Notes: generated by a model from the letters alone, not told the origin. Counted from the stretch's first letter, positions 11,064 through 44,930 are shown. The stretch: DNA of 51,864 nt from a virus (IMGVR_UViG_3300032954_000021:1-51864); one strand, 5' to 3'. A program made the numbers and translations.

Positions 11064-11103
11064 GGAAAATGCGGCCGGATTATGTTTGGCATAACCCGGC
11101 CGC
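11064..11103 (-). terminator. Hairpin downstream of major capsid gene containing the TTATG-N5-CATAA motif
   Basis: The minus strand reads GCGGCCGGGTTATG CCAAA CATAATCCGGCCGC followed by ATTTT. Confidence 0.6.
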
Positions 11104-18399: not shown

Positions 18400-18722
18400 C
18401 AGACACCCTCCGGGAGGATGGCGAACAGACCTTCGAGCTTCTGATTCGTGCTGACGCTGCCGGTCGCACTTACAGTCACGAGATAGACGACGCCGGTCAC
18501 GCCGGCCTGAAGGCTCAGCGTCACGGTCTGCCCCGAGACGGCGGCGCTGCTCGTCACGTAGATCGCATTCGGAGTCGGATCGACGCCGCTCCAGACGCTC
18601 ACCGAGACAGCCGGAGCAGACAGCGTTTCGCCCGCCGCGCACTTCTCCGAGAAGTCAAAGGTAACCTGGACAGTCTCAGACTGCCGCTTCGGCGCCAGAA
18701 TCTGTCGGGAAGGAACTGTCAC
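18399..18722 (-). CDS. Small virion-associated beta-sandwich protein
   Basis: KRQSETVQVTFDFS...GETLS...GVTGVVYLVTV pattern; TGATG coupling to terL. Confidence 0.6.
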   Translation of the reverse strand: MTVPSRQILAPKRQSETVQVTFDFSEKCAAGETLSAPAVSVSVWSGVDPTPNAIYVTSSAAVSGQTVTLSLQAGVTGVVYLVTVSATGSVSTNQKLEGLFAILPEGV

Positions 18723-24818: not shown

Positions 24819-25347
24819 TGATGGTTACTCCTGTGACTTCGGCCCGCTTCCGATGCAGCAGGTCGACGAGGTTCGCTCCCAGTTCTTCGAGATGCACATG
24901 CGTCTCTTGCACGGAGACGCGCGGCGCTTGCAGGCCGAGATTCTGCCCTGTCATCTGCGCAACGCGCAGGGCGAGGTTCGCCTCTACGTCCTTCGGTTCC
25001 GCATCCAGCTTATGTCTGAGGATCTCGAGCGAGCGGGCATGCAGCCCCTCGAGCTGCTCTTTGATTGTGAGGCGCAGCTCAGGGTCGATGATCTCATCCC
25101 GGCGCTCGGCGAGTGCCGCCTGGAAGACGTCAGAGCGGATGATGGTCGAGATCCAGGAGGCGGTCTTATTGAAGACTCGCCCGAGCTCGTTCTGCGATAC
25201 GCCGGGGTTGGCGAGGATGTAGTCGATCATCGCCTTGTGCGAGTAGCGGACTTCGAGGAGCTTCGGACGAGGAGGCTGGGGGATAGGGTCGGCGGCAGGC
25301 GAGGCACGCTTCTCGCCGGAGACGAGACTCTGTAAGAGGGAGTTCAT
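24778..25347 (-). CDS. Putative terminase small subunit (HTH)
   Basis: HKAMIDYILANPGVSQNELGRVFNKTASWISTII HTH followed by a helical region; near the start of the late operon. Confidence 0.6.
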   Translation of the reverse strand: MNSLLQSLVSGEKRASPAADPIPQPPRPKLLEVRYSHKAMIDYILANPGVSQNELGRVFNKTASWISTIIRSDVFQAALAERRDEIIDPELRLTIKEQLEGLHARSLEILRHKLDAEPKDVEANLALRVAQMTGQNLGLQAPRVSVQETHVHLEELGANLVDLLHRKRAEVTGVTINAEATEVRPAPAP

Positions 25348-25350
25348 GAG

Positions 25351-25821
25351 CTAGCCCGCCATCCCTGGCGGGATGCCGCTCGAGCCGACGAAGCCGTGCC
25401 AGCCACACCGCCATGCCGGCGGCCGTTCTTCATCCTGCTCGAAAATCGAGGGGGAGAGAACGAGATCTTCGAGCCCCGTGCCGCGAGCCGCCCAGCGTAC
25501 TGGTTGCCCCTGCTTATTTGTTCCAATCCTTGAGGGGACTGGCGATCCTTCGAACCATACGCAGACGGTGTGAGTGCCCTCCCGCCCGCCGTTCTTTTCA
25601 AAGGACTGCGGACAGAGGAATTTGATTCCGTGAGCTTCAGCAAGAGTAGCAACGTTACGAAAGTGGTCCCAGACTGAAAGCGGACTCCACCCCCAAGGCT
25701 CACCATGCTCGTCTCTGAAAACATACTTCCCGTCAGCTCCCTGCTCGGTGGAAGAGACTGTGTACCATTGCAGAAAGCATGCGTCTAGCTCGCGCAGCGG
25801 AAACGGGCGCCGGCGAGCTAC
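25351..25821 (-). CDS. DUF6527-like Cys/His protein with no ATG/GTG/TTG start
   Basis: Hand translation: ...PLRELDACFLQW...AEAHGIKFLCP...GTHTVCVWF...RWAARGTGLEDLVLSPSI...CGWHGFVG...*. It fills the gap exactly and is absent from the ORF track. Confidence 0.7.
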   Translation of the reverse strand, partial: VARRRPFPLRELDACFLQWYTVSSTEQGADGKYVFRDEHGEPWGWSPLSVWDHFRNVATLAEAHGIKFLCPQSFEKNGGREGTHTVCVWFEGSPVPSRIGTNKQGQPVRWAARGTGLEDLVLSPSIFEQDEERPPAWRCGWHGFVGSSGIPPGMAG

Positions 25822-26027
25822 TGAGGAGGGGCAGGCTGCGCCGCGGGAGCTGGCGCTGCTGCGGGAGCGGGAGCGGGCTCCGGAGCCGGCGCCGGCTTCC
25901 TCCCCTCGAACCAGGCGAAGAGCTTCTTACACTCTGCCTCGCCCCAGTGCGCAATATGCGCAGGAGCCATATCAGCGAGAGCTCCCTCCAGCTCCTCGAC
26001 TCGCTGTTCCAGTGTCTTCTCAGCCAT
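25818..26027 (-). CDS. 69-aa first late gene with Pro/Ala tail
   Basis: Strong AGGAGG RBS, downstream of the leftward promoter. Confidence 0.7.
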   Translation of the reverse strand: MAEKTLEQRVEELEGALADMAPAHIAHWGEAECKKLFAWFEGRKPAPAPEPAPAPAAAPAPAAQPAPPQ

Positions 26028-26107
26028 TCGTGTGTCCTCCTGAGTCCAGCCACGCCGGCGAGATTCTGAGAGAGGCTGCCGGCGTGGCTTACACTAGCCT
26101 CCCCGTG

Positions 26108-26137
26108 AGTATGGCGCGTTCCGATGGGGGCTGTCAA
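26108..26137 (-). promoter_or_regulatory. Leftward sigma70-type promoter for the late arm
   Basis: TTGACA-N18-CATACT on the minus strand. Confidence 0.6.
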
Positions 26138-26177
26138 CCCAGTCAACACATAGCTGCCCGTTTATAATGTGGACGCA

Positions 26178-26192
26178 TTATGCCGAACATAA
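26178..26192. promoter_or_regulatory. Palindromic motif TTATG-N5-CATAA (also at 11080, 34048, 44907)
   Basis: ttatgccgaacataa; four intergenic copies with shared flanks. Confidence 0.7.
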
Positions 26193-26291
26193 CGCGGCCG
26201 TGTTATTTCAGGTCGCGAGTTTGGCCAGATGCGTTCGGGCGCGCGCGATGGTCAGTGAAATTTGCCCCCTCCCCTGGCCGCGGGCCGACCC

Positions 26292-26433
26292 TGCCGGCTG
26301 GCACGGATCTTGCGAGCGGCGTGCTGCGTCGGTGTTGTAGTTGAGTATAACACTGCAGCGCCGCGCATGTTGCAGCGCCGCACGGGCAGCCGGCAATGCT
26401 GCAGCGCACAACAGGCATGCAAGCGGCGTGCCT
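26292..26433 (+). ncRNA. Candidate structured non-coding element
   Basis: Nested stems tgccggctg/cagccggca and gtgttgta/tataacac, then aggcatgc/gcgtgcct; several mismatches are G-U on the + strand. Confidence 0.35.
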
Positions 26434-26444
26434 GCCGCCGACGG

Positions 26445-26470
26445 CGAACATTACAAATTCTTAATGTTCG
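26445..26470. promoter_or_regulatory. 9-8-9 inverted repeat, operator-like
   Basis: cgaacatta-caaattct-taatgttcg, ending 5 nt before the -35 box. Confidence 0.55.
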
Positions 26471-26475
26471 GACGG

Positions 26476-26504
26476 TTGACGGCAGCCTCGCGGCGTGGTA
26501 CGTT
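26476..26504 (+). promoter_or_regulatory. Rightward early sigma70-type promoter
   Basis: TTGACG-N17-TACGTT with extended TG. Confidence 0.6.
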
Positions 26505-26548
26505 GCCCGGCAAGTCGGGCATGTCGCCCGGCGCAATGGAGACTCGCA

Positions 26549-27091
26549 ATGACAACTGAACGCAAGCCCGTGGTCACGGTCACTCGTGACGACTCGGGCA
26601 TCTCGATTCTGGTGAACGGGGCCGGACGGCCTCCGATCGCGGTGCGTTGGTCCGCTCTCTCGGATGCGGTTCGCAAGGCCGCATTCGGATATGGCATGGA
26701 GGTGCGGCTCACGCGCGCCGCTGCCATGACGCGCGACACGAAGTCGGGCAAGGCGGCGTCGCCTCTCGACAAGTACGAGGCGATCAAGCGGCTCGCGGAC
26801 CACTATTCCAGCGGGGCCGATAGCTGGACCATGGCCAGCTCGGGCGGCGGTGGCGGGCTGTCGGCTGACACGCGCGCTCTCATCGAGGCGCTGGTCGCGG
26901 CGCTCGGCCTCGACGCAGATGTGGCCGAGGAGCAGGTGCGCGGCATGACGACCGCTGAGCGCGATGCGCTGCGCGTAGATGCGGAGATCAAGCCCTACTT
27001 GGACCTGATCTACGAAGAGCGCGCGAAGGCGGCGGGCGCGGCGACTGGCGACCTGAAGGCGAAGCTGAAGGGGCTGAGCGCGAAGGTCTAA
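26549..27091 (+). CDS. Early protein, paralog of 33271..33927
   Basis: GGAG RBS; shares the W..GGG..L..AL and LR.D..IKP blocks with the 218-aa ORF. Confidence 0.8.
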   Translation: MTTERKPVVTVTRDDSGISILVNGAGRPPIAVRWSALSDAVRKAAFGYGMEVRLTRAAAMTRDTKSGKAASPLDKYEAIKRLADHYSSGADSWTMASSGGGGGLSADTRALIEALVAALGLDADVAEEQVRGMTTAERDALRVDAEIKPYLDLIYEERAKAAGAATGDLKAKLKGLSAKV

Positions 27092-27104
27092 GCCAGCGGA
27101 GCGA

Positions 27105-27128
27105 GGGGCGGGGACTGACACCCGCCCC
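27105..27128 (+). terminator. GC-rich hairpin after the first early gene
   Basis: ggggcggg-gactgaca-cccgcccc; no U-tract. Confidence 0.35.
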
Positions 27129-27452
27129 AACCTCTGACCACCACCACCAACCTCAACGACTGGCCACCAGCTAGCGGGGGGCCGGTTGGTCGTGGACGCA
27201 TTATGCGCTCAGTCGCCGTACCGTCAGACGCAAGCTCGTCGGCGGGCTTCTCAGAGGCGTGGGGTCAGGGGGATTATTATAATATTTTTTTATATAGAAG
27301 AACAAGAACGCGGACCTGAGCACGGGCACTCGGCCTCCCTGACGCACGGCATACTGAGCACTCGGCGACTGAGGCATAACGCGGACATGGGCGGGCGGCA
27401 CCCCCCTAGTCGGTGGCTAGTCGTTGGTGTTGGTGGTGGTGGACGGTGTTGG
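27127..27452. repeat. ~325-nt imperfect inverted repeat with AT-rich centre (candidate origin or structured RNA)
   Basis: ccaccaccaccaacctcaacgactggccacc vs ggtggctagtcgttggtgttggtggtggtgg; inner ctcagtcgccg/cggcgactgag; centre attattataatatttttttatatagaagaacaagaa. Confidence 0.85.
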
Positions 27453-27482
27453 TCGTGGTGGGCAGCCAGCATCGAACTGGGC

Positions 27483-27511
27483 TTGTTAGCTGCCGCCTAG
27501 CGTGCGATAAT
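27483..27511 (+). promoter_or_regulatory. sigma70-type promoter
   Basis: TTGTTA-N17-GATAAT with extended TG. Confidence 0.55.
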
Positions 27512-27529
27512 GCGCGCAATGCCGCCCAC

Positions 27530-27949
27530 ATGGCTACGCAGATCGAGGACAGCATGAGGATGGAACGCAGGAAACGGCCCGGCTCCAAGATGACTCGCGA
27601 GGACGTGATCGAAATACGCCGCCTCGCCGCCGATACAGACATGTCCTACCGAGAGATCGGCGAGATGATGAACCTCGGTACGGAGCAAGTCGGCCGCATC
27701 GTTCGCGGGGAGCAGTGGCGCGACATTGATCTGATCCCTTCGGATACTGAGGTCGAGGCGCGCATGAGGCGCGAGGCGCCGCCACTCCCGAGCGAGATCG
27801 AACGGTCGCAGGAGCGGCTGAAAGCGCTCCTCGCCGCTGAGCCGGAGCTCATTCAGACACAGGTTCAGGATAGTCCTGAGCCTCCCAACGCCGCCGGCGA
27901 CGCCGAGCGGCAGGAGACGAGCGATGACCACGACAGCAAAGCAGAATGA
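27530..27949 (+). CDS. HTH DNA-binding protein
   Basis: SKMTREDVIEIRRL...SYREIGEMMNLGTEQVGRIVRGEQW. Confidence 0.75.
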   Translation: MATQIEDSMRMERRKRPGSKMTREDVIEIRRLAADTDMSYREIGEMMNLGTEQVGRIVRGEQWRDIDLIPSDTEVEARMRREAPPLPSEIERSQERLKALLAAEPELIQTQVQDSPEPPNAAGDAERQETSDDHDSKAE

Positions 27950-28121
27950 GGCAGAATTCGAAGCCTTCTGGCGTGAGTGGCAGAAAGCCTTCGCGACGAG
28001 CGCGGAGTACAGATCACTCGCCCGAGCCGCTTGGTTCGCAGGGCGGCTGGCGCTCTGTGAGAAGATGGTCGCAGAGCGGCGGCAGCAGCGCGCCAGCGAG
28101 CTGGCTGAGCTCGGAGTCTGA
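27924..28121 (+). CDS. Hypothetical protein
   Basis: 65 aa, AGGAG RBS. Confidence 0.6.
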   Translation: MTTTAKQNEAEFEAFWREWQKAFATSAEYRSLARAAWFAGRLALCEKMVAERRQQRASELAELGV

Positions 28122-28124
28122 GCC

Positions 28125-28343
28125 ATGCCCCGCTCAGTCGTAATCCAGTCCGCCAATACTCTCTCCCCTTGGTATGTCGTCGGCTTCGACTTCGACCGAG
28201 GTTCCATAGTCTGGGATCAGCCCGGCACAACGCCGCCCAAGCACTTCCCCAGCGCGGCCCACGCCCGAGCCTTTCTGAAGAAAGCCAATCACTCGGGCTG
28301 CGGCGTGCTGATCCCTTTCGCCCCCAAGGTCACGCAGCCATGA
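28125..28343 (+). CDS. Hypothetical protein
   Basis: 72 aa in a tightly packed early cluster. Confidence 0.55.
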   Translation: MPRSVVIQSANTLSPWYVVGFDFDRGSIVWDQPGTTPPKHFPSAAHARAFLKKANHSGCGVLIPFAPKVTQP

Positions 28344-28561
28344 CGCTCTATCGAGTCTGTAATGCGGATGGCGCTCTCATCATGACTGCGCCCCTCTACA
28401 CTCTCACCCTGCTCTGGAATATCAAGGGCGCGGACCTCGAAGCGGCGACCGTCGCCCTCGACGACAAGTACAATTTCTACACCTACGTATTCGGGCAGTG
28501 CTATGCGCAGCGCATGCCGCTCGAGATCGAGAATCCTCTTCTCCGGAGACAAGCATCATGA
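28340..28561 (+). CDS. Hypothetical protein
   Basis: MTLYRVC start; ATGA overlaps at both ends. Confidence 0.55.
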   Translation: MTLYRVCNADGALIMTAPLYTLTLLWNIKGADLEAATVALDDKYNFYTYVFGQCYAQRMPLEIENPLLRRQAS

Positions 28562-28896
28562 AAGAGACTCCCGTTACCTACAGCAAACAGCCGCCCGCGA
28601 CCATTCGCGCACTGCGATACATTCGCCAGTACGCCAATCGCGGCCCGAGTCCGAAGCGGACTCGCTTCGGCAAGCAGAAGCGAGCGGCCCTCCAGGCCGC
28701 CGGCATTCGCGACACCGCGCACACGCGCTTGGGCGCTGAGGTTCTCAAGAACCTGTTCGCGCTGAGGATCAGCCTGCCGCCCCTCAAGCCGCCCGCTCCG
28801 CTGCCACCTACTGGCACAGAGCCGATCGAGGGCAAGCCGGCTTCTTCCGGAAGATCTGGCCGCGCGTCAAGCTCAAGAGAGCGACCTACGAGGTAG
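28558..28896 (+). CDS. Basic hypothetical protein
   Basis: MKETPV start, GGAG RBS. Confidence 0.5.
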   Translation: MKETPVTYSKQPPATIRALRYIRQYANRGPSPKRTRFGKQKRAALQAAGIRDTAHTRLGAEVLKNLFALRISLPPLKPPAPLPPTGTEPIEGKPASSGRSGRASSSRERPTR

Positions 28897-28900
28897 TCAA

Positions 28901-29086
28901 ATGAACGAGCTAGAGTCACTCGTCCGACGTAACGCGGAGTCCTGCGAGCAAGCGAAGCACCGCGCATGCCGCTGCCACTGCCGGGGCAAACTGCACGGCA
29001 AGCCGCACTCGGAAGAGTGGGTGCAGAAGGCGATGGCGGAGATTGCAGACGAACGATGGGCAAAGACAGAGGAGGCGGAGCTATGA
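28901..29086 (+). CDS. Small Cys/His-rich protein
   Basis: CEQA...CRCHCRGKLHG; GAGG RBS. Confidence 0.6.
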   Translation: MNELESLVRRNAESCEQAKHRACRCHCRGKLHGKPHSEEWVQKAMAEIADERWAKTEEAEL

Positions 29087-30570
29087 ACCTGCACGATCAA
29101 GTCATCGCAGCTGATCGACCTGATACGAGACAGTGGTCCGACTACCAGCAGGCCATCTTCGAAGCCGTCCGCTCTTCGGACAGCAACCTGCTCATCCAAG
29201 CCGTCGCCGGCTCGGGCAAGACCACCACGATCATCCAGGCCACCAACTACGCCGCCAGCCCCGCTCTGTTACTCGCCTTCAACAAGGACATTGCGCTGGA
29301 CATTCAGGCGAAGCTCGAAGTGGGCACAGCGAAGACGCTCAACGCTCTAGGCCACCGCCTCTGGATGCAGAACGCCGCCGGCGCAAAGCTCGACGCAGAC
29401 AAGCTCGAGAAGCTCGCCGTTCGCGAGATGCCCTCTGATCTCTACCGGAAGTTCGGCTTCATGCTCAAGCGGATCGTTGGGCAGGCGAAGGCTGCCGGCG
29501 TCGGCATCGGCGCTCAGGTCAATTCGAGCGACTTCGACCACTTTATCACGAACGGAGAGTGGGATATCGACGATGCAGACATCGCCTCGCTCGCCCATTA
29601 CGCCGCTCGCGTCTTCAATGCGTCCAGATCGGACCTCCAGACGTTCGACTTCGACGATCAGATCTACGGGCCGGTCTATCATGACTGGAGCTTTCCAGAG
29701 TTCGGCACCGTACTGGTGGACGAAGCGCAGGACCTCAACCGCATCCAGCATCTCTTCCTCCAGAAGCTGTCCGAGGCCGGCGCTCGCATGATCGCAGTCG
29801 GGGACCGGTACCAGGCCATCTACGCGTTCCGAGGTGCGCTCTCGAACTCTCTGGACCTTCTCGCAGACCACTTCAAGATGGAAGAGCTCCCGCTCTCGAT
29901 CAGCTATCGCTGTCCGCTGTCTGTCATAAGAGAGGCGCAGCAGATCGTCCCTCATATCGAGGCCCGTCCGGGCGCTCCCGAGGGTCTCGTCCAGTACCGC
30001 TCGGACAGCGCGCCGAACGAGGAGTACGGCGAGGACCCGAAGCTGTTCGAGAAGGACCACCTCGTTATCTGCCGCAATAATGCGCCGCTCTTCGCGGCAG
30101 TGATGCGGCACGTTCGGGAGCGATCGCCCTGCCGCGTCCGCAGCAACGCCCTCGACGGCCTCAGCTCATTCATCAAGCGCTTCCGCACGAGCGACGCGAG
30201 AGAGATGCTCCTGCGCCTCGACCGATGGCTCGTCAAGGAGACAGCGGCTGCCGAAGCCAAAGGCATGCCTTGGAAGGTGGCGGCGCTCGAGGACAAGGCC
30301 AACACGATCCGCAGCCTCGCCGAGGGCTTCACCCTCGTCGATGAGGTGCTGGCGGTCCTCCGACAGCTATCTGAAGGCAGGACCGGCCCCATCTTCAGCA
30401 CGATTCACAAGGCCAAAGGGCTCGAGGCCGACCACGTGTATTTCCTCCGCCCCGACCTCGTGCCAGCCTGGTTTATCAAAGAGCCGGCGGCGTTGCAGCA
30501 GGAGCAGAACCTGCGCTATGTCGCCATTACTCGGGCGAAACAGTCACTGACATATGGAGTACGAAGATGA
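29083..30570 (+). CDS. UvrD/Rep-like superfamily 1 helicase
   Basis: AVAGSGKTT, VDEAQD, VGDRYQAIY, STIHKAKGLE, YVAITRA. Confidence 0.93.
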   Translation: MNLHDQVIAADRPDTRQWSDYQQAIFEAVRSSDSNLLIQAVAGSGKTTTIIQATNYAASPALLLAFNKDIALDIQAKLEVGTAKTLNALGHRLWMQNAAGAKLDADKLEKLAVREMPSDLYRKFGFMLKRIVGQAKAAGVGIGAQVNSSDFDHFITNGEWDIDDADIASLAHYAARVFNASRSDLQTFDFDDQIYGPVYHDWSFPEFGTVLVDEAQDLNRIQHLFLQKLSEAGARMIAVGDRYQAIYAFRGALSNSLDLLADHFKMEELPLSISYRCPLSVIREAQQIVPHIEARPGAPEGLVQYRSDSAPNEEYGEDPKLFEKDHLVICRNNAPLFAAVMRHVRERSPCRVRSNALDGLSSFIKRFRTSDAREMLLRLDRWLVKETAAAEAKGMPWKVAALEDKANTIRSLAEGFTLVDEVLAVLRQLSEGRTGPIFSTIHKAKGLEADHVYFLRPDLVPAWFIKEPAALQQEQNLRYVAITRAKQSLTYGVRR

Positions 30571-30938
30571 AAGAGCCGAAACAGATTCCCAGCGTTCTCG
30601 TCGATCTCGAGTGGGGCGTGGCCCGGATCAACTTCGAGCAGGGCGCAATGGATGAAGATGGAGACCTGCGCCAGTGGTACACGAAGGAAGAAGGAGAGCA
30701 GCAGCTGTACGTCCGAATGGCCAGCATCGACTTCTTCGCCCCGGCGCAGGAAGGCATGGCGGCGCAGAGTCTCTCTATCGGTCGCACTGGTATTGTTGCA
30801 CTGAAAGAAGCACTGAGCAATATTCACTACGAAGAGGAGTGGCCGTACCAGAAGAAGCTACAAGAGATAAAGGACGCCGCGCAGGCTCCGAAGTCAGTTA
30901 CGTCAGCGCCTATTACTGACGACGACATTCCCTTCTGA
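30567..30938 (+). CDS. Hypothetical protein with SSB-like DDDIPF tail
   Basis: Ends TDDDIPF. Confidence 0.65.
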   Translation: MKEPKQIPSVLVDLEWGVARINFEQGAMDEDGDLRQWYTKEEGEQQLYVRMASIDFFAPAQEGMAAQSLSIGRTGIVALKEALSNIHYEEEWPYQKKLQEIKDAAQAPKSVTSAPITDDDIPF

Positions 30939-30949
30939 AAGGAAGCACC

Positions 30950-31237
30950 ATGAGACTCACAATCCTCGCCCCTCTCGTCCTGAGCGGCTGCTCGGCCCTC
31001 GCCCCAGCCGCCCTCGACTTCGAGGCTCAGCACAACTCCCACCTGCTCCAGCATGACTGGATGACAGACTGGTCACGCCGACAGGCCGGCTACGACACTA
31101 TCGGCGCGGCGGCTAAGTGGGAGCCCTCCCGCTCTACCTACGTGAAGGTGGGGGAGTACTACTCGCCCGAGTGCCTAGACGGGCGGCATGAGGTGTTCGA
31201 GGCGACGTTCGGATATGAAGTGAGGTTGAAGCCATGA
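30950..31237 (+). CDS. Putative lipoprotein
   Basis: MRLTILAPLVLSGC lipobox. Confidence 0.6.
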   Translation: MRLTILAPLVLSGCSALAPAALDFEAQHNSHLLQHDWMTDWSRRQAGYDTIGAAAKWEPSRSTYVKVGEYYSPECLDGRHEVFEATFGYEVRLKP

Positions 31238-31602
31238 GCGATGCTAACAGTTCCTCAAATGAGCAGCTCCCTGAATTTACCTACGAGCAAATCGTAGAGG
31301 GGAAGCGCCCGCCAGTGCTTTCGGGGCCGTACATTCCGGCCTATCTCGCAAAGGCCGAAATCAAGCGGCTGGAGGACTGTATTCGCGGGCTATCCGACCA
31401 TGCAATGAAGTCGGCCCACGAGATCGGCATCATGCTCCAAGCGCTCAAGACGATTGCAGCGAACGACCGCATGACCGCTCCGCATCCAATCGGCCCCGCG
31501 ATGGGCGCGGGCATCAGTCAGGGCCTTGAATGGAACGCGAAGATCGCCAAGCAGGCGTTGTCTGCTGTCGAAGCCGCACCACGGGGCGAGGAGGCAACAT
31601 GA
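31234..31602 (+). CDS. Hypothetical protein
   Basis: 122 aa, ATGA overlaps. Confidence 0.6.
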   Translation: MSDANSSSNEQLPEFTYEQIVEGKRPPVLSGPYIPAYLAKAEIKRLEDCIRGLSDHAMKSAHEIGIMLQALKTIAANDRMTAPHPIGPAMGAGISQGLEWNAKIAKQALSAVEAAPRGEEAT

Positions 31603-32108
31603 GTGCGCACGACAAACCCTCAAATCAGCGCCTCGATGCTCAGATGCAGGTGCTAGCGATAGCCGAAGGACTCGGCATCCCCGATCCCGCATCGTGGACG
31701 TGGCTTGAGCCGGGACAGTTGAAACTCATCTGTCAGGCCATTGCGAAGCAGGCGGCGCAATCCGAGCGGCTGCGCGCGGCGCTGGTGAAGATCGGAACCA
31801 TGTCATGCGTCATGGGCTACGACAGGGGGCACGCCGGCATTGATGCTGTAGTGCGAGAGGCTCTTGGCGAAGCCGCACCACGGGACGAGACTGCGCCAGC
31901 CGATGAGACCAACCGTGACAAGGCCCTGCGAGGCGAGGTCGTGGTCATTAGCGAGGCGCGGCTGCGAGAGATGCGCGAGCAGGCGATTCGCTTTGAAGGG
32001 ATCGGTGACGGTACATATCACTGGCACTGGGCGGCGGCGCTTAATGAACTGATCGCCCTTCGCGAGCCGGTGCAACAAGTCGAGACGACAGCGGAGCATC
32101 AATCATGA
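31599..32108 (+). CDS. Hypothetical protein
   Basis: Start MSAHDK, GAGGAGG RBS. Confidence 0.6.
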   Translation: MSAHDKPSNQRLDAQMQVLAIAEGLGIPDPASWTWLEPGQLKLICQAIAKQAAQSERLRAALVKIGTMSCVMGYDRGHAGIDAVVREALGEAAPRDETAPADETNRDKALRGEVVVISEARLREMREQAIRFEGIGDGTYHWHWAAALNELIALREPVQQVETTAEHQS

Positions 32109-32653
32109 CTGAAGCGCAAGGTACATTCGCATGCCCGATCTGCGGCGTAGAGTCCCCGCACTCGCATTCCGAAGCCACGCAAGCGGCTTATCGAGAGGAG
32201 CAAATCAGCGGGCGGTTCTACGGTGAGGGCGACGGCTGGATTAGGACTGAGCTGCACAGGCCGAAAGAGCGGGGCTGGTATCTGTGCCTCGGAGTTGAGA
32301 TCGATGCCGATCAGTTCGGAAAACCGAAAGACATTTGGGAGCGCCACGACCGTTGGTCGCAACTCTCGTGGTTCAAGTGGGTGCGTCAAGGCGGCGCCCG
32401 CGGGCACTTGGAAAGCGACATTCCCGAGGTTCTGTACTACGACCCGTTCTACGGCGGCTGGCAGCTTCGCAACCTGCTCGGAAACGCCGTCTACTCCGGC
32501 GCTGAGAATCGCCACCGAGTGCAAGCGGAGCCGAAGTACTGGCGTGAGTTGCCTCCGTTCATCAAGAGAGGCACCAGTGAGATGGGCCGAGAAACAGCGA
32601 ATGACCCTGATCGCGGAAAGACTTTCGTCACAGGGTTGGATCAACCGAAGTGA
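32105..32653 (+). CDS. Hypothetical Trp-rich protein
   Basis: CPICG N-terminus; GWI...RP...YWRELP pattern reminiscent of DUF551-type phage domains. Confidence 0.6.
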   Translation: MTEAQGTFACPICGVESPHSHSEATQAAYREEQISGRFYGEGDGWIRTELHRPKERGWYLCLGVEIDADQFGKPKDIWERHDRWSQLSWFKWVRQGGARGHLESDIPEVLYYDPFYGGWQLRNLLGNAVYSGAENRHRVQAEPKYWRELPPFIKRGTSEMGRETANDPDRGKTFVTGLDQPK

Positions 32654-32807
32654 TCTGATGGACGCATTTGGCATCTCGACTCAGCAGGCGTCGAAAGACC
32701 TACAGACGTTTCTACGGCTGAATCCTCGGGCGATGCGCTATAACCTGAGTGCAAAGCGGTACGAAGCAGCACCACCGGAGAACGGGAAAGCGGAGCCTCG
32801 CTCATGA
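32577..32807 (+). CDS. Stand-alone winged-HTH resembling the N-terminal domain of CapW/BrxR WYL regulators
   Basis: GTG start with GAGG RBS; RWAEKQRMTLIAERL..QGWINRSDLMDAFGISTQQASKDLQTF...YNLSAKRY. Confidence 0.7.
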   Translation: MRWAEKQRMTLIAERLSSQGWINRSDLMDAFGISTQQASKDLQTFLRLNPRAMRYNLSAKRYEAAPPENGKAEPRS

Positions 32808-33178
32808 ACATCATCATCCAGACCATCGATCACTCTCAACAGCGCTACGACACCTGCGGAGACTGGCGGTTCGAGTCCAACGCCCTCGTCATCCGAGTCA
32901 GCTCTCTGAAGAACTGGCGCATGGAAGCCCTCATCGCCATCCACGAGCTGATCGAGGCAGTCCTCTGCCGAGGCTTCAACGTCGACCAGGGCGACGTGGA
33001 TCAGTTCGACCTCCAGTTCTCCGGCCCCGGGGAGCCCGGCGACCAGTTCGCCGCTCCCTACTACATGCAGCACCAGATCGCGACCGGCATCGAGCGCCTG
33101 CTCGCCGCCTACCTCATGGTGGACTGGCTCGACTACGAGAAGCGGGTGAATGGATTGGGGCAGACAGCAAAAGACTGA
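32804..33178 (+). CDS. Phage hypothetical protein
   Basis: QRYDTCGDW, IAIHELIE, EPGD...APYYMQH motifs. Confidence 0.65.
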   Translation: MNIIIQTIDHSQQRYDTCGDWRFESNALVIRVSSLKNWRMEALIAIHELIEAVLCRGFNVDQGDVDQFDLQFSGPGEPGDQFAAPYYMQHQIATGIERLLAAYLMVDWLDYEKRVNGLGQTAKD

Positions 33179-33179
33179 G

Positions 33180-33208
33180 TGGACGCGCGATTCGCGTCCG
33201 CGTATGAT
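33180..33208 (+). promoter_or_regulatory. sigma70-type promoter with palindromic spacer
   Basis: TGGACG-N17-TATGAT; ggacgcg..cgcgtcc dyad overlapping the -35 box and spacer. Confidence 0.6.
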
Positions 33209-33270
33209 CGCAGCTTCGGAATCGCGGGCCGCCGACTCAAAGGGTCCGCACACTGATAGGAGAAGAGAGA

Positions 33271-33927
33271 ATGAACGCAACAGCAGAACAGGCAGCCGGC
33301 GAAGCCGCCGCAGCTGCCCCCGCTCGCAAGAAGGCAGAGGTCGAGATCGTGGAGATGACCGATGGACGCAAGGTGTCGTTCTCGGGCAAGTCGAAGGTCT
33401 CGAAGGAGTTCCTGGTGAATGGGAAGCCCTTCGATGAGCTGACTCCCGAGGAGCAGGCCAAGGCGCACGTCGGCCATTCTGCCGTCCGCTTCGACTTCCG
33501 CAACGGCACGACTCGCACGTATCCGCTGAACACCGCGCTCGCCCTGCGCTTCGCAGGCCACGGTGCTCTGCAGAAGTACGGCGATGAGCTGGCCGGCGAG
33601 GACGCACCCGATCTCGATGACTGGGCTGCGACCACGGATCGGCTGCACGAGCGGCTGTCTGGCGGGGAGTGGACGAAGGCCCGCGTAGGCGGCGGCATGG
33701 CAGGCACCAGCGTGCTGCTCCAGGCCCTGATGGAGTTCACCGGGCGTACTGCCGACGAGGTCCGCGAGCACATCAAGGACTGGACGCCGCAGGACAAGCA
33801 GGCCATGCGCAACGATCCTGACATCAAGCCGATCGTCGAGCGCATCGAGAAGGAGAAGGCCGAGAAGGCTTCGAAGAACGTCGATACCGGCGCTCTGAAG
33901 GCCTCTCTAAAGAGTCTCGCCGCATAG
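33271..33927 (+). CDS. Early protein, paralog of 26549..27091
   Basis: 218 aa with its own promoter, AGGAG RBS and downstream hairpin. Confidence 0.8.
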   Translation: MNATAEQAAGEAAAAAPARKKAEVEIVEMTDGRKVSFSGKSKVSKEFLVNGKPFDELTPEEQAKAHVGHSAVRFDFRNGTTRTYPLNTALALRFAGHGALQKYGDELAGEDAPDLDDWAATTDRLHERLSGGEWTKARVGGGMAGTSVLLQALMEFTGRTADEVREHIKDWTPQDKQAMRNDPDIKPIVERIEKEKAEKASKNVDTGALKASLKSLAA

Positions 33928-33963
33928 CGGAGAGTCCTCGGATCGCGAGTCCCGAGGAGGAGT

Positions 33964-33981
33964 GGGGGCCGAAAGGCCCCC
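33964..33981 (+). terminator. GAAA-tetraloop hairpin
   Basis: gggggcc-gaaa-ggccccc followed by tctct. Confidence 0.5.
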
Positions 33982-34034
33982 TCTCTACTAGTAAGAGGAC
34001 CGGAAGGCGGGCGGCAGGCAGCAGCATACTGCCA

Positions 34035-34063
34035 TTGCACGTTCGCATTATGTCGGGCATAAT
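34035..34063 (+). promoter_or_regulatory. sigma70-type promoter whose -10 box lies inside the TTATG-N5-CATAA motif
   Basis: TTGCAC-N17-CATAAT; palindrome at 34048-34062. Confidence 0.65.
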
Positions 34064-34148
34064 ACCCACACGAATTGAAACCAGCTGCATGTCTCGCGCG
34101 GCGAGCGGATTACCGGCACTAGCAGCTCTAACCTAACAGGAGACAAGA

Positions 34149-34433
34149 ATGGCCCAGATCCCCAAGCAGATCATCCCGCACAAGCTCTACAAAGTCAATG
34201 CGAGCGCCCTCGGCCTCGGCACCGAAGGAGATGTCGAGGTCGTGCTGGAGCGCGACTGCGACTGGCTCAAGAACGAGGACGGTTCGCATGGCCGCGTGAC
34301 GCACTGGCTCGTCCGGCAGGTCACAATCCGCTCGGGTACCTTCCCGAACGCCGACTACTCCTTCGGAGAGCCGATCCGCGTCGCAGCGAGCGAACTCCGC
34401 CCCATGATGCGGACCATAAAGGCAGCCGCGTAA
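34149..34433 (+). CDS. Hypothetical protein
   Basis: 94 aa, AGGAG RBS. Confidence 0.65.
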   Translation: MAQIPKQIIPHKLYKVNASALGLGTEGDVEVVLERDCDWLKNEDGSHGRVTHWLVRQVTIRSGTFPNADYSFGEPIRVAASELRPMMRTIKAAA

Positions 34434-34798
34434 TGTCTGAGGGCAGCCTCGAGCGCCTCCAGCGCATTCTCGTCCGAGCCCGGCATCGCGCCGGCCTCGA
34501 GGCTGCCGCTCGCCGCGCACTGAAGCAGAAGCGGAAGGCAAAGACCGTTGCAGAGGACTACGCCGACCGGCTGGCAGAGAAAGCTCTGTATCGCCGGCTG
34601 CTCGAAGACCTCCGTCTGGATGGAATGCGCTTCCAGTTCTACTTCACCCGCATCTCGAAAGACGTTGATCTTACCGAGCTCCGTGCTTGGATAGATGCAA
34701 AGATAGCAGAGGAGACGAAGCGTGAGATGGATAAAAAAGCTGATCGACCGCTGGTTCGGATGGGAGACGCTGCCAGGTCCGAAGCCGGACCCGCGTAA
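34433..34798 (+). CDS. Hypothetical protein
   Basis: 121 aa, TAATG coupling. Confidence 0.55.
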   Translation: MSEGSLERLQRILVRARHRAGLEAAARRALKQKRKAKTVAEDYADRLAEKALYRRLLEDLRLDGMRFQFYFTRISKDVDLTELRAWIDAKIAEETKREMDKKADRPLVRMGDAARSEAGPA

Positions 34799-34847
34799 CT
34801 GGTCCGACGCTTACATGACCGAGTATCGGAAGGCGACGAAGGCCTAG
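34722..34847 (+). CDS. 41-aa peptide MRWIKKLIDRWFGWETLP...
   Basis: GTG start with GAGGAG RBS; fills the gap to 34849. Confidence 0.45.
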   Translation: MRWIKKLIDRWFGWETLPGPKPDPRNWSDAYMTEYRKATKA

Positions 34848-34848
34848 C

Positions 34849-35055
34849 GTGCCACGCCCTCCCGAGATAATCCGTCCTGTGTCGCTGCATACCTCGGTCC
34901 CCGAGGACTTGGCGACCTGGCTCACCGTCCACCTCTGGAGCAAGGCAGAGGGGAGAGTGCCGCATGGTGCGCGGCAGGCACTCATCTTGCAGCTACTGAG
35001 AGAGTATCGCGCCCGATTCGAGACGAGAGAGGTGTCCAGTGATTCAGAGTCCTGA
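34849..35055 (+). CDS. Small putative DNA-binding (RHH-like) protein
   Basis: MPRPPEIIRPVSLHTSVPEDL...EGRVPHGA...ILQLLREY. Confidence 0.55.
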   Translation: MPRPPEIIRPVSLHTSVPEDLATWLTVHLWSKAEGRVPHGARQALILQLLREYRARFETREVSSDSES

Positions 35056-35254
35056 GTTGCAAATGAAGATCGCCCATTGGCGGGACAAGCAGTCCCGCGG
35101 CGAAATGTCACCAGAGGACTGGATCGAAGCGATGACTGCCCTCCGTGAGCATCGCACCGGCGCCCAGGCCGCCTCTGCCGCCTCGAAGGCCCGCAAGGCG
35201 CCCGTCGATACGTCCGCGCTGAAGGACAGCCTCCGCGCGCTCAAGAAGATCTGA
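35039..35254 (+). CDS. Hypothetical protein with shared C-terminal tag
   Basis: Ends VDTSALKDSLRALKKI. Confidence 0.65.
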   Translation: MIQSPELQMKIAHWRDKQSRGEMSPEDWIEAMTALREHRTGAQAASAASKARKAPVDTSALKDSLRALKKI

Positions 35255-35284
35255 CCTGAAACGAAAGTCCGAAGGGAGCTACCT

Positions 35285-35476
35285 GTGGACTCAGACTCAC
35301 AGTACACGCCGATCTACCAAGTCGAATGCGCTGAGTGCGGTATAGCGCCGGTCGTCGGCATTCGCGCTCCCTCTGGAGTCATCATCTGTTCCGCGCTGTG
35401 CGGCCCGCACTTCTTCGGCGATCGGCTGATGCTGGAGCCGGAGCGGTGGAATCAGCAACAGGAGGCGACCGAATGA
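35285..35476 (+). CDS. Small Zn-finger-like protein
   Basis: CAECG...CGPH. Confidence 0.55.
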   Translation: MDSDSQYTPIYQVECAECGIAPVVGIRAPSGVIICSALCGPHFFGDRLMLEPERWNQQQEATE

Positions 35477-35859
35477 CAGACCGTCGCCCTACTATAGGCA
35501 GAAAGCGAAGTCGCTTTACAGGCAAGGTAGTTCGAGAACATATTCGGATTGCAGAGGAAGTGCTTGGACGCGCCCTACCGGCAGGTGCTGTCGTTCATCA
35601 CGTTGACTGCAATCCAGCAAATAATACGAGAAGCAATCTTGTAATCTGTCCGAACGAGGCTTATCACAAGCTGTTGCATAAGAGAACAGAAGCTATTGCT
35701 GCTACAGGCAACCCAAACTGCAGAAAATGTGTATTCTGTAAGCAGTGGGACTTCCCAGAGAACATGAAGGAACGAGGCAGCAGAGACTTTCACCACGCAC
35801 GCTGTGCAGCAGCTGCAGTACTGGAGAGATACTATGCTAAAAAATCCACCGTTTCCTGA
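35473..35859 (+). CDS. HNH homing endonuclease
   Basis: EHIRIAEEVLGR.L...VVHHVDCNPANNTRSNLVIC...YHKLLH; low GC. Confidence 0.85.
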   Translation: MTDRRPTIGRKRSRFTGKVVREHIRIAEEVLGRALPAGAVVHHVDCNPANNTRSNLVICPNEAYHKLLHKRTEAIAATGNPNCRKCVFCKQWDFPENMKERGSRDFHHARCAAAAVLERYYAKKSTVS

Positions 35860-36951: not shown

Positions 36952-37376
36952 AAGTCTGGATCAAGTTCCCGATAGAACACTCCAAGGTCTGGGAGATTAC
37001 TCGCCCAGAGCAGGACAGCTATCGTGGCTTCTGGATTCACTCCCGCGCGAAGGTCTGCCCGCATTGCCTCCAGATCTGGGCAACCATGACCACAGAGAAA
37101 GGCGGACCTTGGTCCATTGAGGGCCAGTCCTGTGCCGAGTGCAACGAGAGCCACTATTGCGTAGCCGGCTCGCTGCTGGAAGACCGCAGCTCGCAGACGT
37201 TCGACCTCGACCTCATTCGCTATCTGCCGCTCGAATTGCAGCAGAGAGAATTCGACCTACACGTTAGAGCATTACAGAAGGACTCGCAGAATGAACAGCC
37301 CCCTCCCATTGCATCAGAGCCACTCCTCGACAGCATCCTCGAGCCAGACAGCAGCGCCGCCATCCTCGGAGCCTAG
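36948..37376 (+). CDS. Zn-finger hypothetical protein
   Basis: CPHCLQIWA...CAEC...GSLL. Confidence 0.6.
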   Translation: MKVWIKFPIEHSKVWEITRPEQDSYRGFWIHSRAKVCPHCLQIWATMTTEKGGPWSIEGQSCAECNESHYCVAGSLLEDRSSQTFDLDLIRYLPLELQQREFDLHVRALQKDSQNEQPPPIASEPLLDSILEPDSSAAILGA

Positions 37377-39007: not shown

Positions 39008-39037
39008 GAGGGGGAGCCCATGTCCCCCTCTCTTTTT
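39008..39037 (+). terminator. Intrinsic terminator
   Basis: gaggggga-gcccatg-tccccctc followed by tcttttt. Confidence 0.6.
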
Positions 39038-39058
39038 CCTCAGACTCGGAGACTCGCA

Positions 39059-44894: not shown

Positions 44895-44930
44895 AATGCG
44901 GCCGGATTATGTCCGGCATAACACGTCCAC
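44895..44930. repeat. Copy of the dispersed palindromic element
   Basis: aatgcggccggattatgtccggcataac matches 11068-11095 at 26/28 nt; its reverse complement resembles 26169-26200. Confidence 0.8.

What the first reader, a model, noticed from the sequence alone, without database searches (positions are those of the whole stretch)
27192..27384. 'Filled' versus 'empty' version of the dispersed palindrome
Seen: 26169-26197 reads gtggacgcattatgc-cgaa-cataacgcgg. At 27192-27206 the identical 15-mer gtggacgcattatgc occurs and at 27375-27384 the identical cataacgcgg, but 168 nt of self-complementary sequence with the AT core replace the 4-nt centre. When folded, the same TTATG/CATAA stem forms. Inference: the recognised entity may be a stem in ssDNA or RNA rather than a duplex operator, or the 168 nt are an insertion into an att-like site. 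This links the repeat network to the putative origin as one system.
Basis: partly seen in the sequence, partly recalled or inferred. Interest (0 to 1): 0.8.

Follow-up and report, generated by a model that had tools for sequence, protein, structure and literature searches.

The report
Operator half-sites inside a phage palindrome
An uncultured wetland phage carries a conserved 320-base DNA palindrome with a T-rich centre, possibly a replication origin, and in this phage its two arms hold the two halves of a small binding site that also sits on the early promoter.

Summary
26169-26183 equals 27192-27206 (15/15). 26188-26197 equals 27375-27384 (10/10, 13/15 when extended). In a single-strand fold the same TTATG/CATAA stem forms.

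The 168 nt between the arms are not an insertion. They are the centre of a larger imperfect palindrome, 27134-27450, with a DNA-fold z of -8 to -10. This palindrome lies just after a 180-aa early gene in every relative whose contig reaches that far. All copies have a T-run at the apex and inverted arrays of lineage-specific 3-12-nt repeats in the outer arms. None of the relatives carries this phage's arms.

The small palindrome belongs to a family of 15-bp dyads, TTATN-N5-NATAA. There are four in this genome and five in a complete relative. One dyad sits in the early-promoter region of 8 of 11 lineages. Four of nine dyads cannot form a useful hairpin, so the family looks like duplex operators.

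In 3 of 8 lineages (this one, L010, L017) the large palindrome contains that lineage's own half-site. The link between the two elements therefore recurs but is not universal.

Best reading: one sequence-specific protein binds full dyads at promoters and single half-sites beside the T-rich core of an origin-like element. The function is inferred, not shown.

The parts
26163..26168 (+). TATAAT, a likely -10 box of the rightward early promoter, immediately left of site B
   Evidence: Read directly from the sequence. It aligns with GGTATAATG in relatives L019 and L021. The consensus scan did not list it, so this is an inference.
26169..26197 (.). Site B, the small ('empty') palindrome. Core dyad is TTATG (26178-26182), CCGAA, CATAA (26188-26192).
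   Evidence: DNA hairpin energy -8.0 kcal/mol. A strain variant in run X2 keeps the dyad, and its 26177 A>G change turns the A.C mismatch into a G-C pair.
26549..27091 (+). First early gene, 180 aa, unknown function, flanked by site B and the large palindrome
   Evidence: 39 homologs. No Pfam, PHROG or convincing NCBIfam family. AlphaFold2 pLDDT 87, no PDB fold match (best E 0.28), and only unnamed viral proteins in BFVD.
27105..27128 (+). GC-rich hairpin after the gene's stop codon (GGGGCGGGG-N8-CCGCCCC), with no T-run behind it
   Evidence: An equivalent hairpin follows the gene in the relatives.
27134..27450 (.). Large imperfect palindrome, an origin-like element
   Evidence: dG -112 kcal/mol, z -8.1; z -10.1 with a second shuffle set. 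Self-alignment 27127-27452, E 7e-25. Present at the same place in all relatives that reach it.
27137..27149 (+). (ACC)n array in the left outer arm, the inverted partner of the (TGG)n / GTTGGT array at 27423-27461
   Evidence: The relatives have arrays of other units at the same place.
27192..27206 (+). Left half-site, identical to 26169-26183
27207..27374 (.). The 168-nt centre: inner arms, a G-run, and an AT/T-rich core at about 27271-27301
   Evidence: The inner left arm GGCGGGCTTCTCAGAGGCG...GGGGGATT is conserved in sequence in L020, and more loosely (CTnAGAGGC ... AT-T-run) in L016 and L017. It is single-copy in the window.
27375..27389 (+). Right half-site, matching 26188-26202 at 13/15 with the first 10 exact
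27483..27511 (+). Sigma-70-like promoter TTGTTA-17-GATAAT with an upstream TG, directly after the palindrome
   Evidence: The same promoter (TTGCCG or TTGCAC, 17 nt, TGnGCCATAATGCGCG) follows the palindrome in 8 relatives.
27530..27949 (+). 139-aa helix-turn-helix protein, one candidate binder of the dyads
   Evidence: Weak TnsD and Sigma70_r4 hits, and hits to the HTH parts of endonuclease PHROGs. The single-sequence model shows helices 23-35, 40-46 and 51-58. In relative G003 a dyad lies 14 nt before this gene's ribosome-binding site.
11071..11103 (.). Dyad site A, between two late genes
   Evidence: Kept in the 96%-identical contig L005.
34047..34063 (.). Dyad site D (ATTATG TCGGG CATAAT), lying inside a TTGCAC-17-CATAAT promoter-like stretch
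   Evidence: The promoter reading comes from the sequence and is an inference.
44898..44928 (.). Dyad site C, between the stop of the DUF3987 primase-like gene (44892) and the next start codon (44945)

Best explanation
The window is a complete phage contig. At 27134-27450 it has a conserved origin-like element. The element is a long imperfect palindrome whose outer arms are inverted arrays of short, lineage-specific repeats, and whose centre is an easily melted T-rich tract.

Separately, the phage group uses 15-bp dyads, TTATN-N5-NATAA, with half-sites one helical turn apart. I read these as duplex operators for a dimeric, sequence-specific DNA-binding protein. One dyad, site B, overlaps the start region of the rightward early promoter.

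In this phage the two middle arms of the large palindrome each carry one half-site of site B, 176 bp apart and symmetric about the T-rich core. I propose that the same protein binds full dyads at promoters to control transcription, and binds single half-sites beside the core. That would couple early-promoter control to the activity of the element, either by helping or blocking opening of the core, or by looping out the 1-kb segment that holds the 180-aa gene.

Shown: the sequences, their conservation, their statistics and their positions. Inferred: that a protein binds them, which protein it is, and that the element is an origin.
For: 1. Twelve related loci representing 11 relatives (L008 and L022 are near-identical), plus the near-identical L015, have the element at the same place. 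L018 and L027 are truncated contigs that show only the left arm and T-run. DNA-fold z for the nine relatives folded is -4.7 to -12.6. The more distant G003 has a weaker version (z -2.1).
2. Apex T-tracts of 9-24 nt lie on the gene strand in the relatives folded or read. The window's own core is degenerate by comparison: its longest T-run is 7 nt and no run of 8 or more exists.
3. In 9 of 10 sequences analysed the outer arms are paired inverted tandem arrays with a different unit in each lineage: ACC/TGG, CAA/GTT, CCT/AGG, ACCACA/TGGTAC and others. L021 has an array on one side only. This matches the anatomy reported for SaPI origins, with short iterons on both sides of an AT-rich centre pointing in opposite directions (PMC9371898, passages read).
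4. Arm mismatches show no + strand wobble bias: G.T 27 against A.C 36. That argues against an element selected only as + strand RNA.
5. The dyad family has 4 sites here, 5 in G003 and 2 in G004, with 0 for the reversed control pattern. A dyad lies 370-600 nt upstream of the 180-aa gene in 8 of 11 lineages, with half-sites changing together on both sides: TTATG/CATAA, TTATA/TATAA, TTATC/GATAA. Spacer length is fixed at 5.
6. The lineage's own half-site occurs in its own large palindrome in the window (13/13 and 11/13), L010 (12/13, three copies) and L017 (11/13). Each match was reached by 0-4 of 200 shuffles.
7. A natural strain variant of site B keeps the dyad.
Against: - In 5 of 8 lineages tested (L008, L019, L021, L025, G003) the large palindrome holds no copy of the local half-site. 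The coupling is therefore not a general property of the element.
- No binding protein is identified. The 180-aa protein has no known fold and the HTH protein is only a candidate.
- No initiator or helicase gene adjoins the element. The UvrD-like helicase starts 1.5 kb downstream and the DUF3987 gene is 16 kb away.
- The half-site's reverse complement, CATAATGCG, equals the group's consensus -10 box plus the following bases. The sites could be promoter elements rather than operators.
- The near-identity of site B and the arms (15/15) could reflect recent gene conversion with no function.
- There is no replication, transcription or binding data of any kind.
Confidence: 0.4

Rival explanations
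1. The half-sites are host sigma-70 -10 elements rather than sites for a phage protein. Each dyad would be two back-to-back -10 boxes. The large palindrome would carry outward-facing promoters on either side of the T-rich core, whose divergent transcription helps open it or makes antisense or primer RNA. The identity with site B would reflect promoter consensus plus gene conversion.
For: - The reverse complement of the half-site, CATAATGCG, matches the conserved promoter after the palindrome, TGnGCCATAATGCGCG.
- In L008, L019 and L021 the right half of the dyad is itself TATAAT.
- The consensus scan lists CTGACG-16-CATAAT on the minus strand at 27227..27200 and ATAACA-18-CATAAT at 26206..26177.
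- Site D lies inside TTGCAC-17-CATAAT (read from the sequence).
Against: - The copies in the large palindromes include lineage-specific GC-rich flanks: GGCGCC in L010, CCCGGGG in L017, GGACGC here. Sigma-70 does not read those.
- Three of the four window dyads have CATAAC, lacking the essential final T, on one strand.
- Sites C and G003(3) lie 14-30 nt from a start codon, too close for a promoter serving that gene.
- The -35 matches are poor (4 of 6 at best).
Confidence: 0.2
2. The recognised form is a hairpin stem in single-stranded DNA or RNA. Site B and the large palindrome present the same mismatched stem (CGC, unpaired A/C, TTATG) to a structure-specific protein. This could happen when the large palindrome extrudes, or when it is exposed as a single strand and used for priming from its T-rich loop, as at mitochondrial OriL.
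For: - The same stem with the same unpaired A/C forms in both elements.
- The large palindrome is strongly selected for self-complementarity across relatives even though the arm sequences differ.
- The T-run is always at the apex and on one strand. OriL is a stem-loop in which the primer starts in a T-stretch of the loop (PMC4256270, passages read).
- Sites A and B, and G003's site at 45296, are good hairpins (-14.0, -8.0 and -11.6 kcal/mol).
Against: - Four of nine dyads have hairpin energies of -0.4 to -2.7 kcal/mol, and site C's best fold is a different hairpin.
- The arms beyond the 5-bp core are not complementary at site D or at three G003 sites.
- The spacer is fixed at 5 nt, as expected for a dimer on duplex DNA.
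- In L010 the half-sites on the two sides of the T-run are direct, not inverted, and in L017 only one arm has a copy. Neither can form the stem.
- The likely early transcription start falls inside site B's left arm, so that RNA would lack the hairpin. This last point is an inference from the sequence.
Confidence: 0.15
3. The large palindrome acts as RNA: a long hairpin between the first early gene and the next promoter. It would serve as a terminator, an insulator or an RNase III processing site, and the shared arms would be incidental.
For: - It lies between two genes on the same strand, after one hairpin and before a conserved promoter.
- In L016 and L019 a local hairpin directly precedes the T-run, as in an intrinsic terminator.
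Against: - No + strand G.U excess: 27 G.T against 36 A.C.
- In most relatives the T-run is at the apex, not behind a stem, and the terminator scan found none here.
- No Rfam family matches.
- This reading does not explain why the local half-sites recur in 3 lineages.
Confidence: 0.12
4. The 168 nt are a mobile insertion, MITE-like or integrated, into a site-B-like target, so the two loci are a filled and an empty site.
For: - The 15-nt and 10-nt arms flank the 168 nt exactly as they flank the 5-nt loop in site B.
- In relative G003 the HTH gene is preceded by an 'empty' dyad with a similar left flank: TTGGTCGCATTATA there, TTGGTCGTGGACGCATTATG here.
Against: - The inner arms and core are homologous to the centres of the relatives' palindromes, which lack these arms.
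- Self-complementarity continues about 60 nt outside the arms.
- There is no second copy of the 168 nt.
- No integrase or transposase among the 62 ORFs scanned.
- No joint across 27206/27375 or 26183/27207 in the contigs of 4 runs.
- G003 has its own large palindrome 2 kb away from that dyad.
Confidence: 0.03

Closest known systems
Replication origins of self-loading helicase replicons (SaPI-type ori)
   Same: Short repeats of 3-6 nt on both sides of an AT-rich centre, pointing in opposite directions, with the repeat sequence differing between related elements (PMC9371898, passages read).
   Different: Here the whole 250-330 bp is one imperfect palindrome that includes non-repetitive middle arms. 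The centre is a homopolymer-like T-tract of up to 24 nt in the relatives. No rep or helicase gene lies immediately upstream; the upstream neighbour is a 180-aa protein of unknown fold. Binding and origin activity are untested.
Iteron plasmids, in which the initiator binds repeats at the origin and an inverted pair of half-repeats at its own promoter (pPS10 RepA, F RepE; recalled, not read here)
   Same: The same half-site is used as an inverted dyad at a promoter and as single copies at an origin-like element. The 180-aa gene sits between the two.
   Different: No Rep-like initiator is identified. The half-sites in the large palindrome number one to three, not an array. The arrangement is seen in only 3 of 8 lineages.
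Palindromic viral origins with an AT-rich centre flanked by inverted initiator sites (HSV oriS/oriL, SV40 core origin; recalled, not read here)
   Same: A palindrome with an AT-rich centre and inverted recognition sites on the two arms.
   Different: Those are eukaryotic viruses with unrelated initiators and much shorter palindromes (45-144 bp). Nothing here has been tested.
Mitochondrial OriL and other single-strand initiation hairpins
   Same: A stem-loop with a T-stretch in the loop on one specific strand (PMC4256270, passages read). The replisome is phage-type, with a family A polymerase.
   Different: The OriL stem is about 11 bp, whereas this one has about 140-nt arms. Nothing indicates strand-displacement replication in this phage. 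Priming is untestable here.
Operators of dimeric helix-turn-helix repressors (lambda, 434 and P22 type; recalled)
   Same: A 15-bp dyad with 5-bp half-sites whose centres are 10 bp apart, several copies per genome, and one overlapping an early promoter.
   Different: The sites are scattered through late and replication modules. The phage has no integrase or recognisable repressor among the 62 ORFs scanned. Some copies lie within 14-30 nt of a start codon.

Membership tests
SaPI-type iteron origin | Short penta- or hexanucleotide repeats on both sides of an AT-rich centre, with at least two per side in opposite directions | tested here: met
   TRF finds inverted arrays of period 3-12 nt flanking the core on both sides in 9 of 10 sequences. 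L021 has an array on one side only.
SaPI-type iteron origin | Lies immediately downstream of the rep (initiator-helicase) gene | tested here: not met
   The upstream gene is a 180-aa protein with no helicase or winged-helix match. The DUF3987 gene is at 43669-44892.
SaPI-type iteron origin | The cognate initiator binds the repeats and melts the centre, and the element supports replication | not testable with these tools
   No host, no protein assay.
Dimeric-repressor operator | Dyad-symmetric half-sites at a fixed one-turn spacing, conserved as sequence rather than as a stem | tested here: met
   TTATN-N5-NATAA at 4 window sites, 5 G003 sites and 2 G004 sites, and at 8 of 11 early-promoter regions. 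Four of nine sites lack hairpin potential.
Dimeric-repressor operator | Overlaps or adjoins a promoter that it controls | tested here: inconclusive
   Site B follows a TATAAT box and site D lies inside a promoter-like stretch. Sites A and C, and G003's site before the HTH gene, lie between a stop codon and a ribosome-binding site with no clear promoter.
Dimeric-repressor operator | A cognate DNA-binding protein | not tested
   The only candidate is the HTH protein at 27530-27949.
MITE or integrated element in a target site | Several copies, terminal inverted repeats at its ends, a target-site duplication, empty sites in relatives, and a recombinase | tested here: not met
   Single copy. The palindrome extends beyond the supposed ends. 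Relatives have the centre without the arms. No recombinase among the 62 ORFs scanned. No joints.
Intrinsic transcription terminator | A GC-rich stem directly followed by a T-run | tested here: not met
   The T-run is at the apex of the long stem. The scan of 25500-35500 lists no terminator in 27100-27480. A local pre-T-run hairpin is seen only in some relatives.
Protelomerase target (telRL) | A perfect palindrome with a self-complementary centre, plus a protelomerase gene | tested here: not met
   The centre is asymmetric, T-rich on one strand. The small dyads have odd, non-complementary spacers. No protelomerase family was hit in the 62 ORFs scanned; not every ORF was scanned.
Any Rfam RNA family | Reaches the family's gathering score | tested here: not met
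   0 matches over the whole window.
OriL-like single-strand priming hairpin | A stem-loop with a T-stretch in the loop on the template strand | tested here: met
   This is structure only.
OriL-like single-strand priming hairpin | Primer synthesis starts in the loop when the strand is displaced | not testable with these tools
   No replication data.

The most novel reading that the evidence does not exclude
The conserved 250-330-bp palindrome with an oligo(dT) apex is a new kind of phage replication origin. Once opened or extruded, it offers a T-rich loop for priming, as at mitochondrial OriL, and inverted iteron arrays for helicase loading. In some lineages it has also taken up half-operators of the early-promoter switch, so that one protein times both early transcription and origin firing.
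Probability: 0.15. Interest if true: 0.75.

Novelty: new variant of a known kind. Interest (0 to 1): 0.5.

Why it matters
Replication origins are known for very few phages, and for none from uncultured groups like this one. No match was found among 50,697 deposited phage records to the 4 kb around the locus or to the neighbouring 180-aa protein, and the best helicase match was 37% identical.

This is a conserved, easily recognised non-coding element: a long palindrome with a T-run apex and lineage-specific repeat arms. It sits at the head of the replication module and gives a concrete candidate origin that can be cloned and tested.

The recurrent sharing of lineage-specific half-sites between the early promoter and this element suggests a simple coupling of transcription control and replication. 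The same logic is known from iteron plasmids but is not described for lytic podophages.

If the element proves to be only a regulatory or RNA feature, the result is still useful. It shows that the apparent filled and empty sites are one binding motif used at two spacings, not a mobile insertion.

Tried and rejected
- DNA search of 25000-29000 against deposited phages: no match.
- tblastn of the 180-aa protein against phages: no match.
- Single-protein scans of IMG/VR with the two flanking proteins: nothing. An alignment of homologs was needed.
- Rfam: nothing.
- My first ungapped palindrome finder missed the element because of its unpaired core. I replaced it with a self-BLAST.
- A ten-sequence MAFFT alignment of the palindromes (A2) was too poor outside the core for pair-by-pair covariation counts, so I built no covariance model. 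The case for structure rests on per-sequence fold z-scores and on arms that differ between lineages yet stay complementary.
- Sequencing runs: 7 wetland metagenome runs hold part of the stretch and no RNA holder is listed. Four were laid, all as contigs. No joint removing or inverting 27207-27374 or 26184-27206 was seen. Contigs drop rare variants, so this does not exclude them.
- The minor strain variant of site B in run X2 could not be linked to its own copy of the large palindrome. The left arm in X2 is covered only by a contig of different depth carrying the window's sequence.
- Structure of the 180-aa protein: confident model, no PDB match, and only unnamed viral proteins in BFVD. The protein atlas returned viral hypothetical proteins only.
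- The HTH protein's single-sequence model had pLDDT 67, so I did not send it to a fold search.
- The DUF3987 protein has no sequence relative in the PDB.
- Literature: two full-text searches for phage origins with palindromes gave nothing on this kind of element. That is no proof that it is absent from print.
- Earlier notes of this scan hold nothing on this genome or sequence.
- Cumulative GC skew cannot separate the element from the divergent transcription switch 1 kb away, so I did not use it.
- Supplements of the papers were not opened.

Full report
**What the window is.** The 51,864 bases are one whole phage contig. Its ends overlap, with 1-2539 matching 49320-51864 at 94.4%, so the genome unit is about 49.3 kb and the contig wraps round with strain variation.

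Late genes run leftward from about 26.1 kb: terminase 16936-18642, portal 14795-16936, head closure 7676-9223, tail spike 6009-7676. Early and replication genes run rightward from 26.5 to 45.2 kb:
- UvrD-like helicase, 28966-30570
- exonuclease, 35804-36742
- Sak4-like protein, 37291-38223
- ParB-methyltransferase, 39020-40375
- family A polymerase with an N-terminal UDG domain, 40928-43474
- DUF3987 primase-like protein, 43669-44892

No integrase, transposase or protelomerase family turned up in the 62 ORFs scanned. Deposited phages have no match to the 4 kb around the locus or to the 180-aa protein, and the best helicase match is 37% identical.

**The observation.** It is correct. GTGGACGCATTATGC stands at 26169-26183 and at 27192-27206. 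CATAACGCGG stands at 26188-26197 and at 27375-27384, and this match extends to 13/15. The 168 nt lie between. A 15-nt word shared between the 800 nt upstream of the gene and the large palindrome was reached by 0 of 200 shuffles. In the single-strand DNA fold, 27201-27205 pair with 27375-27379 (probability 0.95-1.0), with A27200 and C27380 unpaired, just as in the small palindrome.

**The large palindrome is bigger and older than the finding implies.** Self-complementarity runs from about 27134 to 27450 (dG -112 kcal/mol, z -8.1; z -10.1). The matching arms therefore lie in the middle of each long arm.

The upstream gene (26549-27091, 180 aa) has 39 homologs at 47-99% identity. An alignment of 31 of these plus the window's protein brought in related loci from IMG/VR and JGI metagenomes. 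Gene order is conserved: a leftward gene, the divergent region, the 180-aa gene, the palindrome, sometimes the HTH gene, then the helicase.

Every relative whose contig reaches far enough has a 150-330-nt imperfect palindrome directly after the gene's GC-rich hairpin:
- L008/L022, L009, L010, L016, L017, L019, L020, L021 and L025 show it in full, with DNA-fold z -4.7 to -12.6.
- The truncated contigs L018 and L027 show the left arm and the T-run.
- The more distant complete genome G003 has a weaker version (z -2.1).
- L026 ends inside the gene and could not be judged.

Three features are shared. There is a T-tract of 9-24 nt at the apex, always on the gene strand; the window's own core is degenerate, with a longest T-run of 7 nt. 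In some relatives the inner arms are partly conserved in sequence (CTnAGAGGC ... GGGGGATTTT). The outer arms consist of inverted tandem arrays whose unit differs from lineage to lineage: ACC/TGG here, ACCACA/TGGTAC in L020, CAA/GTTGAT in L017, CCT/AGG in L010, and others.

None of the relatives except the near-identical L015 has the window's arms. The 168-nt centre is single-copy in the genome. These facts rule out the reading that 168 nt were inserted into a small palindrome.

**The small palindrome family.** ATTATG-N5-CATAAC occurs four times, centred at 11087, 26185, 34055 and 44914. All four sites are intergenic. The pattern TTATR-N5-YATAA occurs 5 times in the complete relative G003 and twice in G004, against 0 for the reversed control.

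A dyad of this kind lies 370-600 nt upstream of the 180-aa gene in 8 of 11 lineages. The half-sites change together on both sides: TTATG/CATAA here; TTATA/TATAA in six lineages; TTATC/GATAA in L010. L009 has two six-spaced versions. Within the species, a minor strain in run X2 changes five bases of site B yet keeps the dyad, turning the A.C mismatch into G-C.

The spacer is fixed at 5 nt and is not self-complementary. The bases beyond the 5-bp cores are complementary at some sites and not at others. Four of nine sites have hairpin energies of only -0.4 to -2.7 kcal/mol.

The conserved unit is thus a 15-bp dyad with half-site centres one helical turn apart. That is what a dimeric DNA-binding protein on duplex DNA would read. 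A hairpin is not needed to explain the family.

Site B directly follows a TATAAT that aligns with the GGTATAATG of L019 and L021. It would therefore cover the start region of the rightward early promoter.

**Is the link to the large palindrome real?** For eight lineages with an identified site-B dyad, I searched each lineage's own large palindrome for its own 13-nt half-sites, with 200 dinucleotide shuffles as control.
- The window scores 13/13 (0 of 200 shuffles) and 11/13 (4 of 200).
- L010 scores 12/13 (0-1 of 200). GATAACAGGCGCC lies at 5747, with further copies at 5682 and 5576.
- L017 scores 11/13 (1 of 200).
- L008, L019, L021, L025 and G003 score at chance.
- L010 also shares a separate 18-mer between the two regions.

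Three lineage-specific hits in eight trials, each with odds of about 1 in 100, are unlikely to be chance. The two elements are therefore connected, but not in every lineage.

The geometry differs between lineages. The half-sites are inverted and symmetric here. In L010 they are direct repeats on either side of the T-run. L017 has a single copy.

**RNA or DNA?** Across ten palindromes the arm mismatches are 27 G.T against 36 A.C on the gene strand, beside 562 Watson-Crick pairs and 90 other mismatches. A hairpin selected as + strand RNA should favour G.U, and this one does not. Rfam has no match. The terminator scan lists nothing in the element, and the T-run sits at the apex rather than behind a stem. 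A conserved sigma-70-like promoter follows the palindrome in the window (27483-27511) and in eight relatives.

**Mechanism.** I commit to the following, at about 40%. The palindrome is an origin-like DNA element with an easily melted T-rich centre between inverted arrays of lineage-specific short repeats. This anatomy is reported for SaPI origins, where self-loading helicases bind 5-6-nt iterons on both sides of an AT-rich centre (PMC9371898, passages read). The dyads are operators of a phage-encoded dimeric protein. In this phage, L010 and L017, single half-sites of that operator lie beside the core. One protein could then tie early-promoter control to the opening of the element, or loop out the 1-kb segment carrying the 180-aa gene.

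The logic of a dyad at the promoter and single sites at the origin is that of iteron plasmids; I recall this and did not read it here. The binder is unknown. The HTH protein encoded just after the palindrome is one candidate, and in G003 a dyad lies 14 nt before its ribosome-binding site. The 180-aa protein has a confident model but no known fold.

**What weighs against this reading.**
- Five of eight lineages lack the half-sites.
- No initiator gene adjoins the element.
- The half-site's complement, CATAATGCG, is the same as the group's -10 box plus the following bases, so the sites might be promoter elements.
- The 15/15 identity could be recent gene conversion.

The rivals are set out with their odds in their own section. 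The most novel reading still open is an OriL-like priming hairpin with a T-stretch in the loop (PMC4256270, passages read), combined with an origin and switch of a new kind.

**Variation in public reads.** Seven wetland metagenome runs hold part of the stretch. In the contigs of four of them no joint deletes or inverts the centre or the segment between the direct repeats. Contigs cannot show rare forms, so this is recorded as tried, not as evidence.

**Verdict.** The filled-versus-empty picture is better described as one binding motif used at two spacings, inside a conserved and apparently undescribed origin-like palindrome of an uncultured phage group. Function is inferred from anatomy and conservation only.

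Noticed in passing
window 1-2539 and 49320-51864: The two ends of the contig are 94.4% identical direct repeats that run off both ends. The contig probably wraps round a 49.3-kb genome and joins two strain variants. The large minus-strand ORFs 3-3413 and 48485-51802 are the two versions and differ at their N-termini.
   Followed up: partly
window 26226-26275: A non-coding block of about 50 nt (GCGTTCGGGCGCGCGCGA ... GAAATTTGCCCCCTCCCC) is conserved almost letter for letter in the divergent region of relatives that share only 50-65% protein identity in the neighbouring gene. Its function is unknown.
   Followed up: no
window 26345-26497: TGCAGCGC occurs three times at 26345-26410. An 80-nt inverted repeat at 26420-26497, around CGAACATTACAAATTCTTAATGTTCG, lies just before the TTGACG-17-TACGTT promoter-like stretch of the 180-aa gene. 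A 55-nt inverted repeat is at the same place in L016, L018, L020 and L026. Some relatives have TTCCACGTGGAA palindromes there instead.
   Followed up: no
L016, L019-L022 and L025 after the palindrome; L021 and L025 divergent region: A second small palindrome, AGACAT-N3/4-ATGTCT, abuts the GGGTTG -35 region of the promoter after the large palindrome. In L021 and L025 a related copy abuts the leftward promoter. It may be a second operator type. The window has only a degenerate version at 27461-27485.
   Followed up: no
L010 4434-4451 and 5796-5813: An 18-mer, ATCCTCGCAGACTCGGAT, is shared in inverted orientation between L010's divergent region and the right arm of its large palindrome. Its first 10 nt also occur in the left arm at 5666. 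This is a second motif linking the two regions in that lineage.
   Followed up: partly
L011, L012, L013, L014 (match at about 5001-5440 in each): Relatives carry a second, distant paralog of the 180-aa gene (31-36% identity) about 2 kb downstream of the helicase gene. I did not check whether the window has one.
   Followed up: no
window 35335-35859 and 40452-40940: Two HNH_3 endonuclease genes sit in the replication module, one directly before the polymerase gene. They are likely homing endonucleases.
   Followed up: no
window 40928-43474: The family A DNA polymerase carries an N-terminal uracil-DNA-glycosylase-superfamily domain, residues 6-182.
   Followed up: no
window 47142-48509 (minus strand): An ATP-grasp protein resembling GARS_A sits among the late genes, next to the large virion-protein gene.
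   Followed up: no
window 27185-27195 and 27448-27458: GTTGGTCGTGG is a direct 11-nt repeat. One copy lies just left of the left half-site and the other at the outer end of the right arm. G003 has TTGGTCG directly before its dyad upstream of the HTH gene.
   Followed up: no
window 27268: The contig of run X1, which may be the source sample, has one G fewer in the G-run before the AT core. This is homopolymer length variation or an assembly difference.
   Followed up: no
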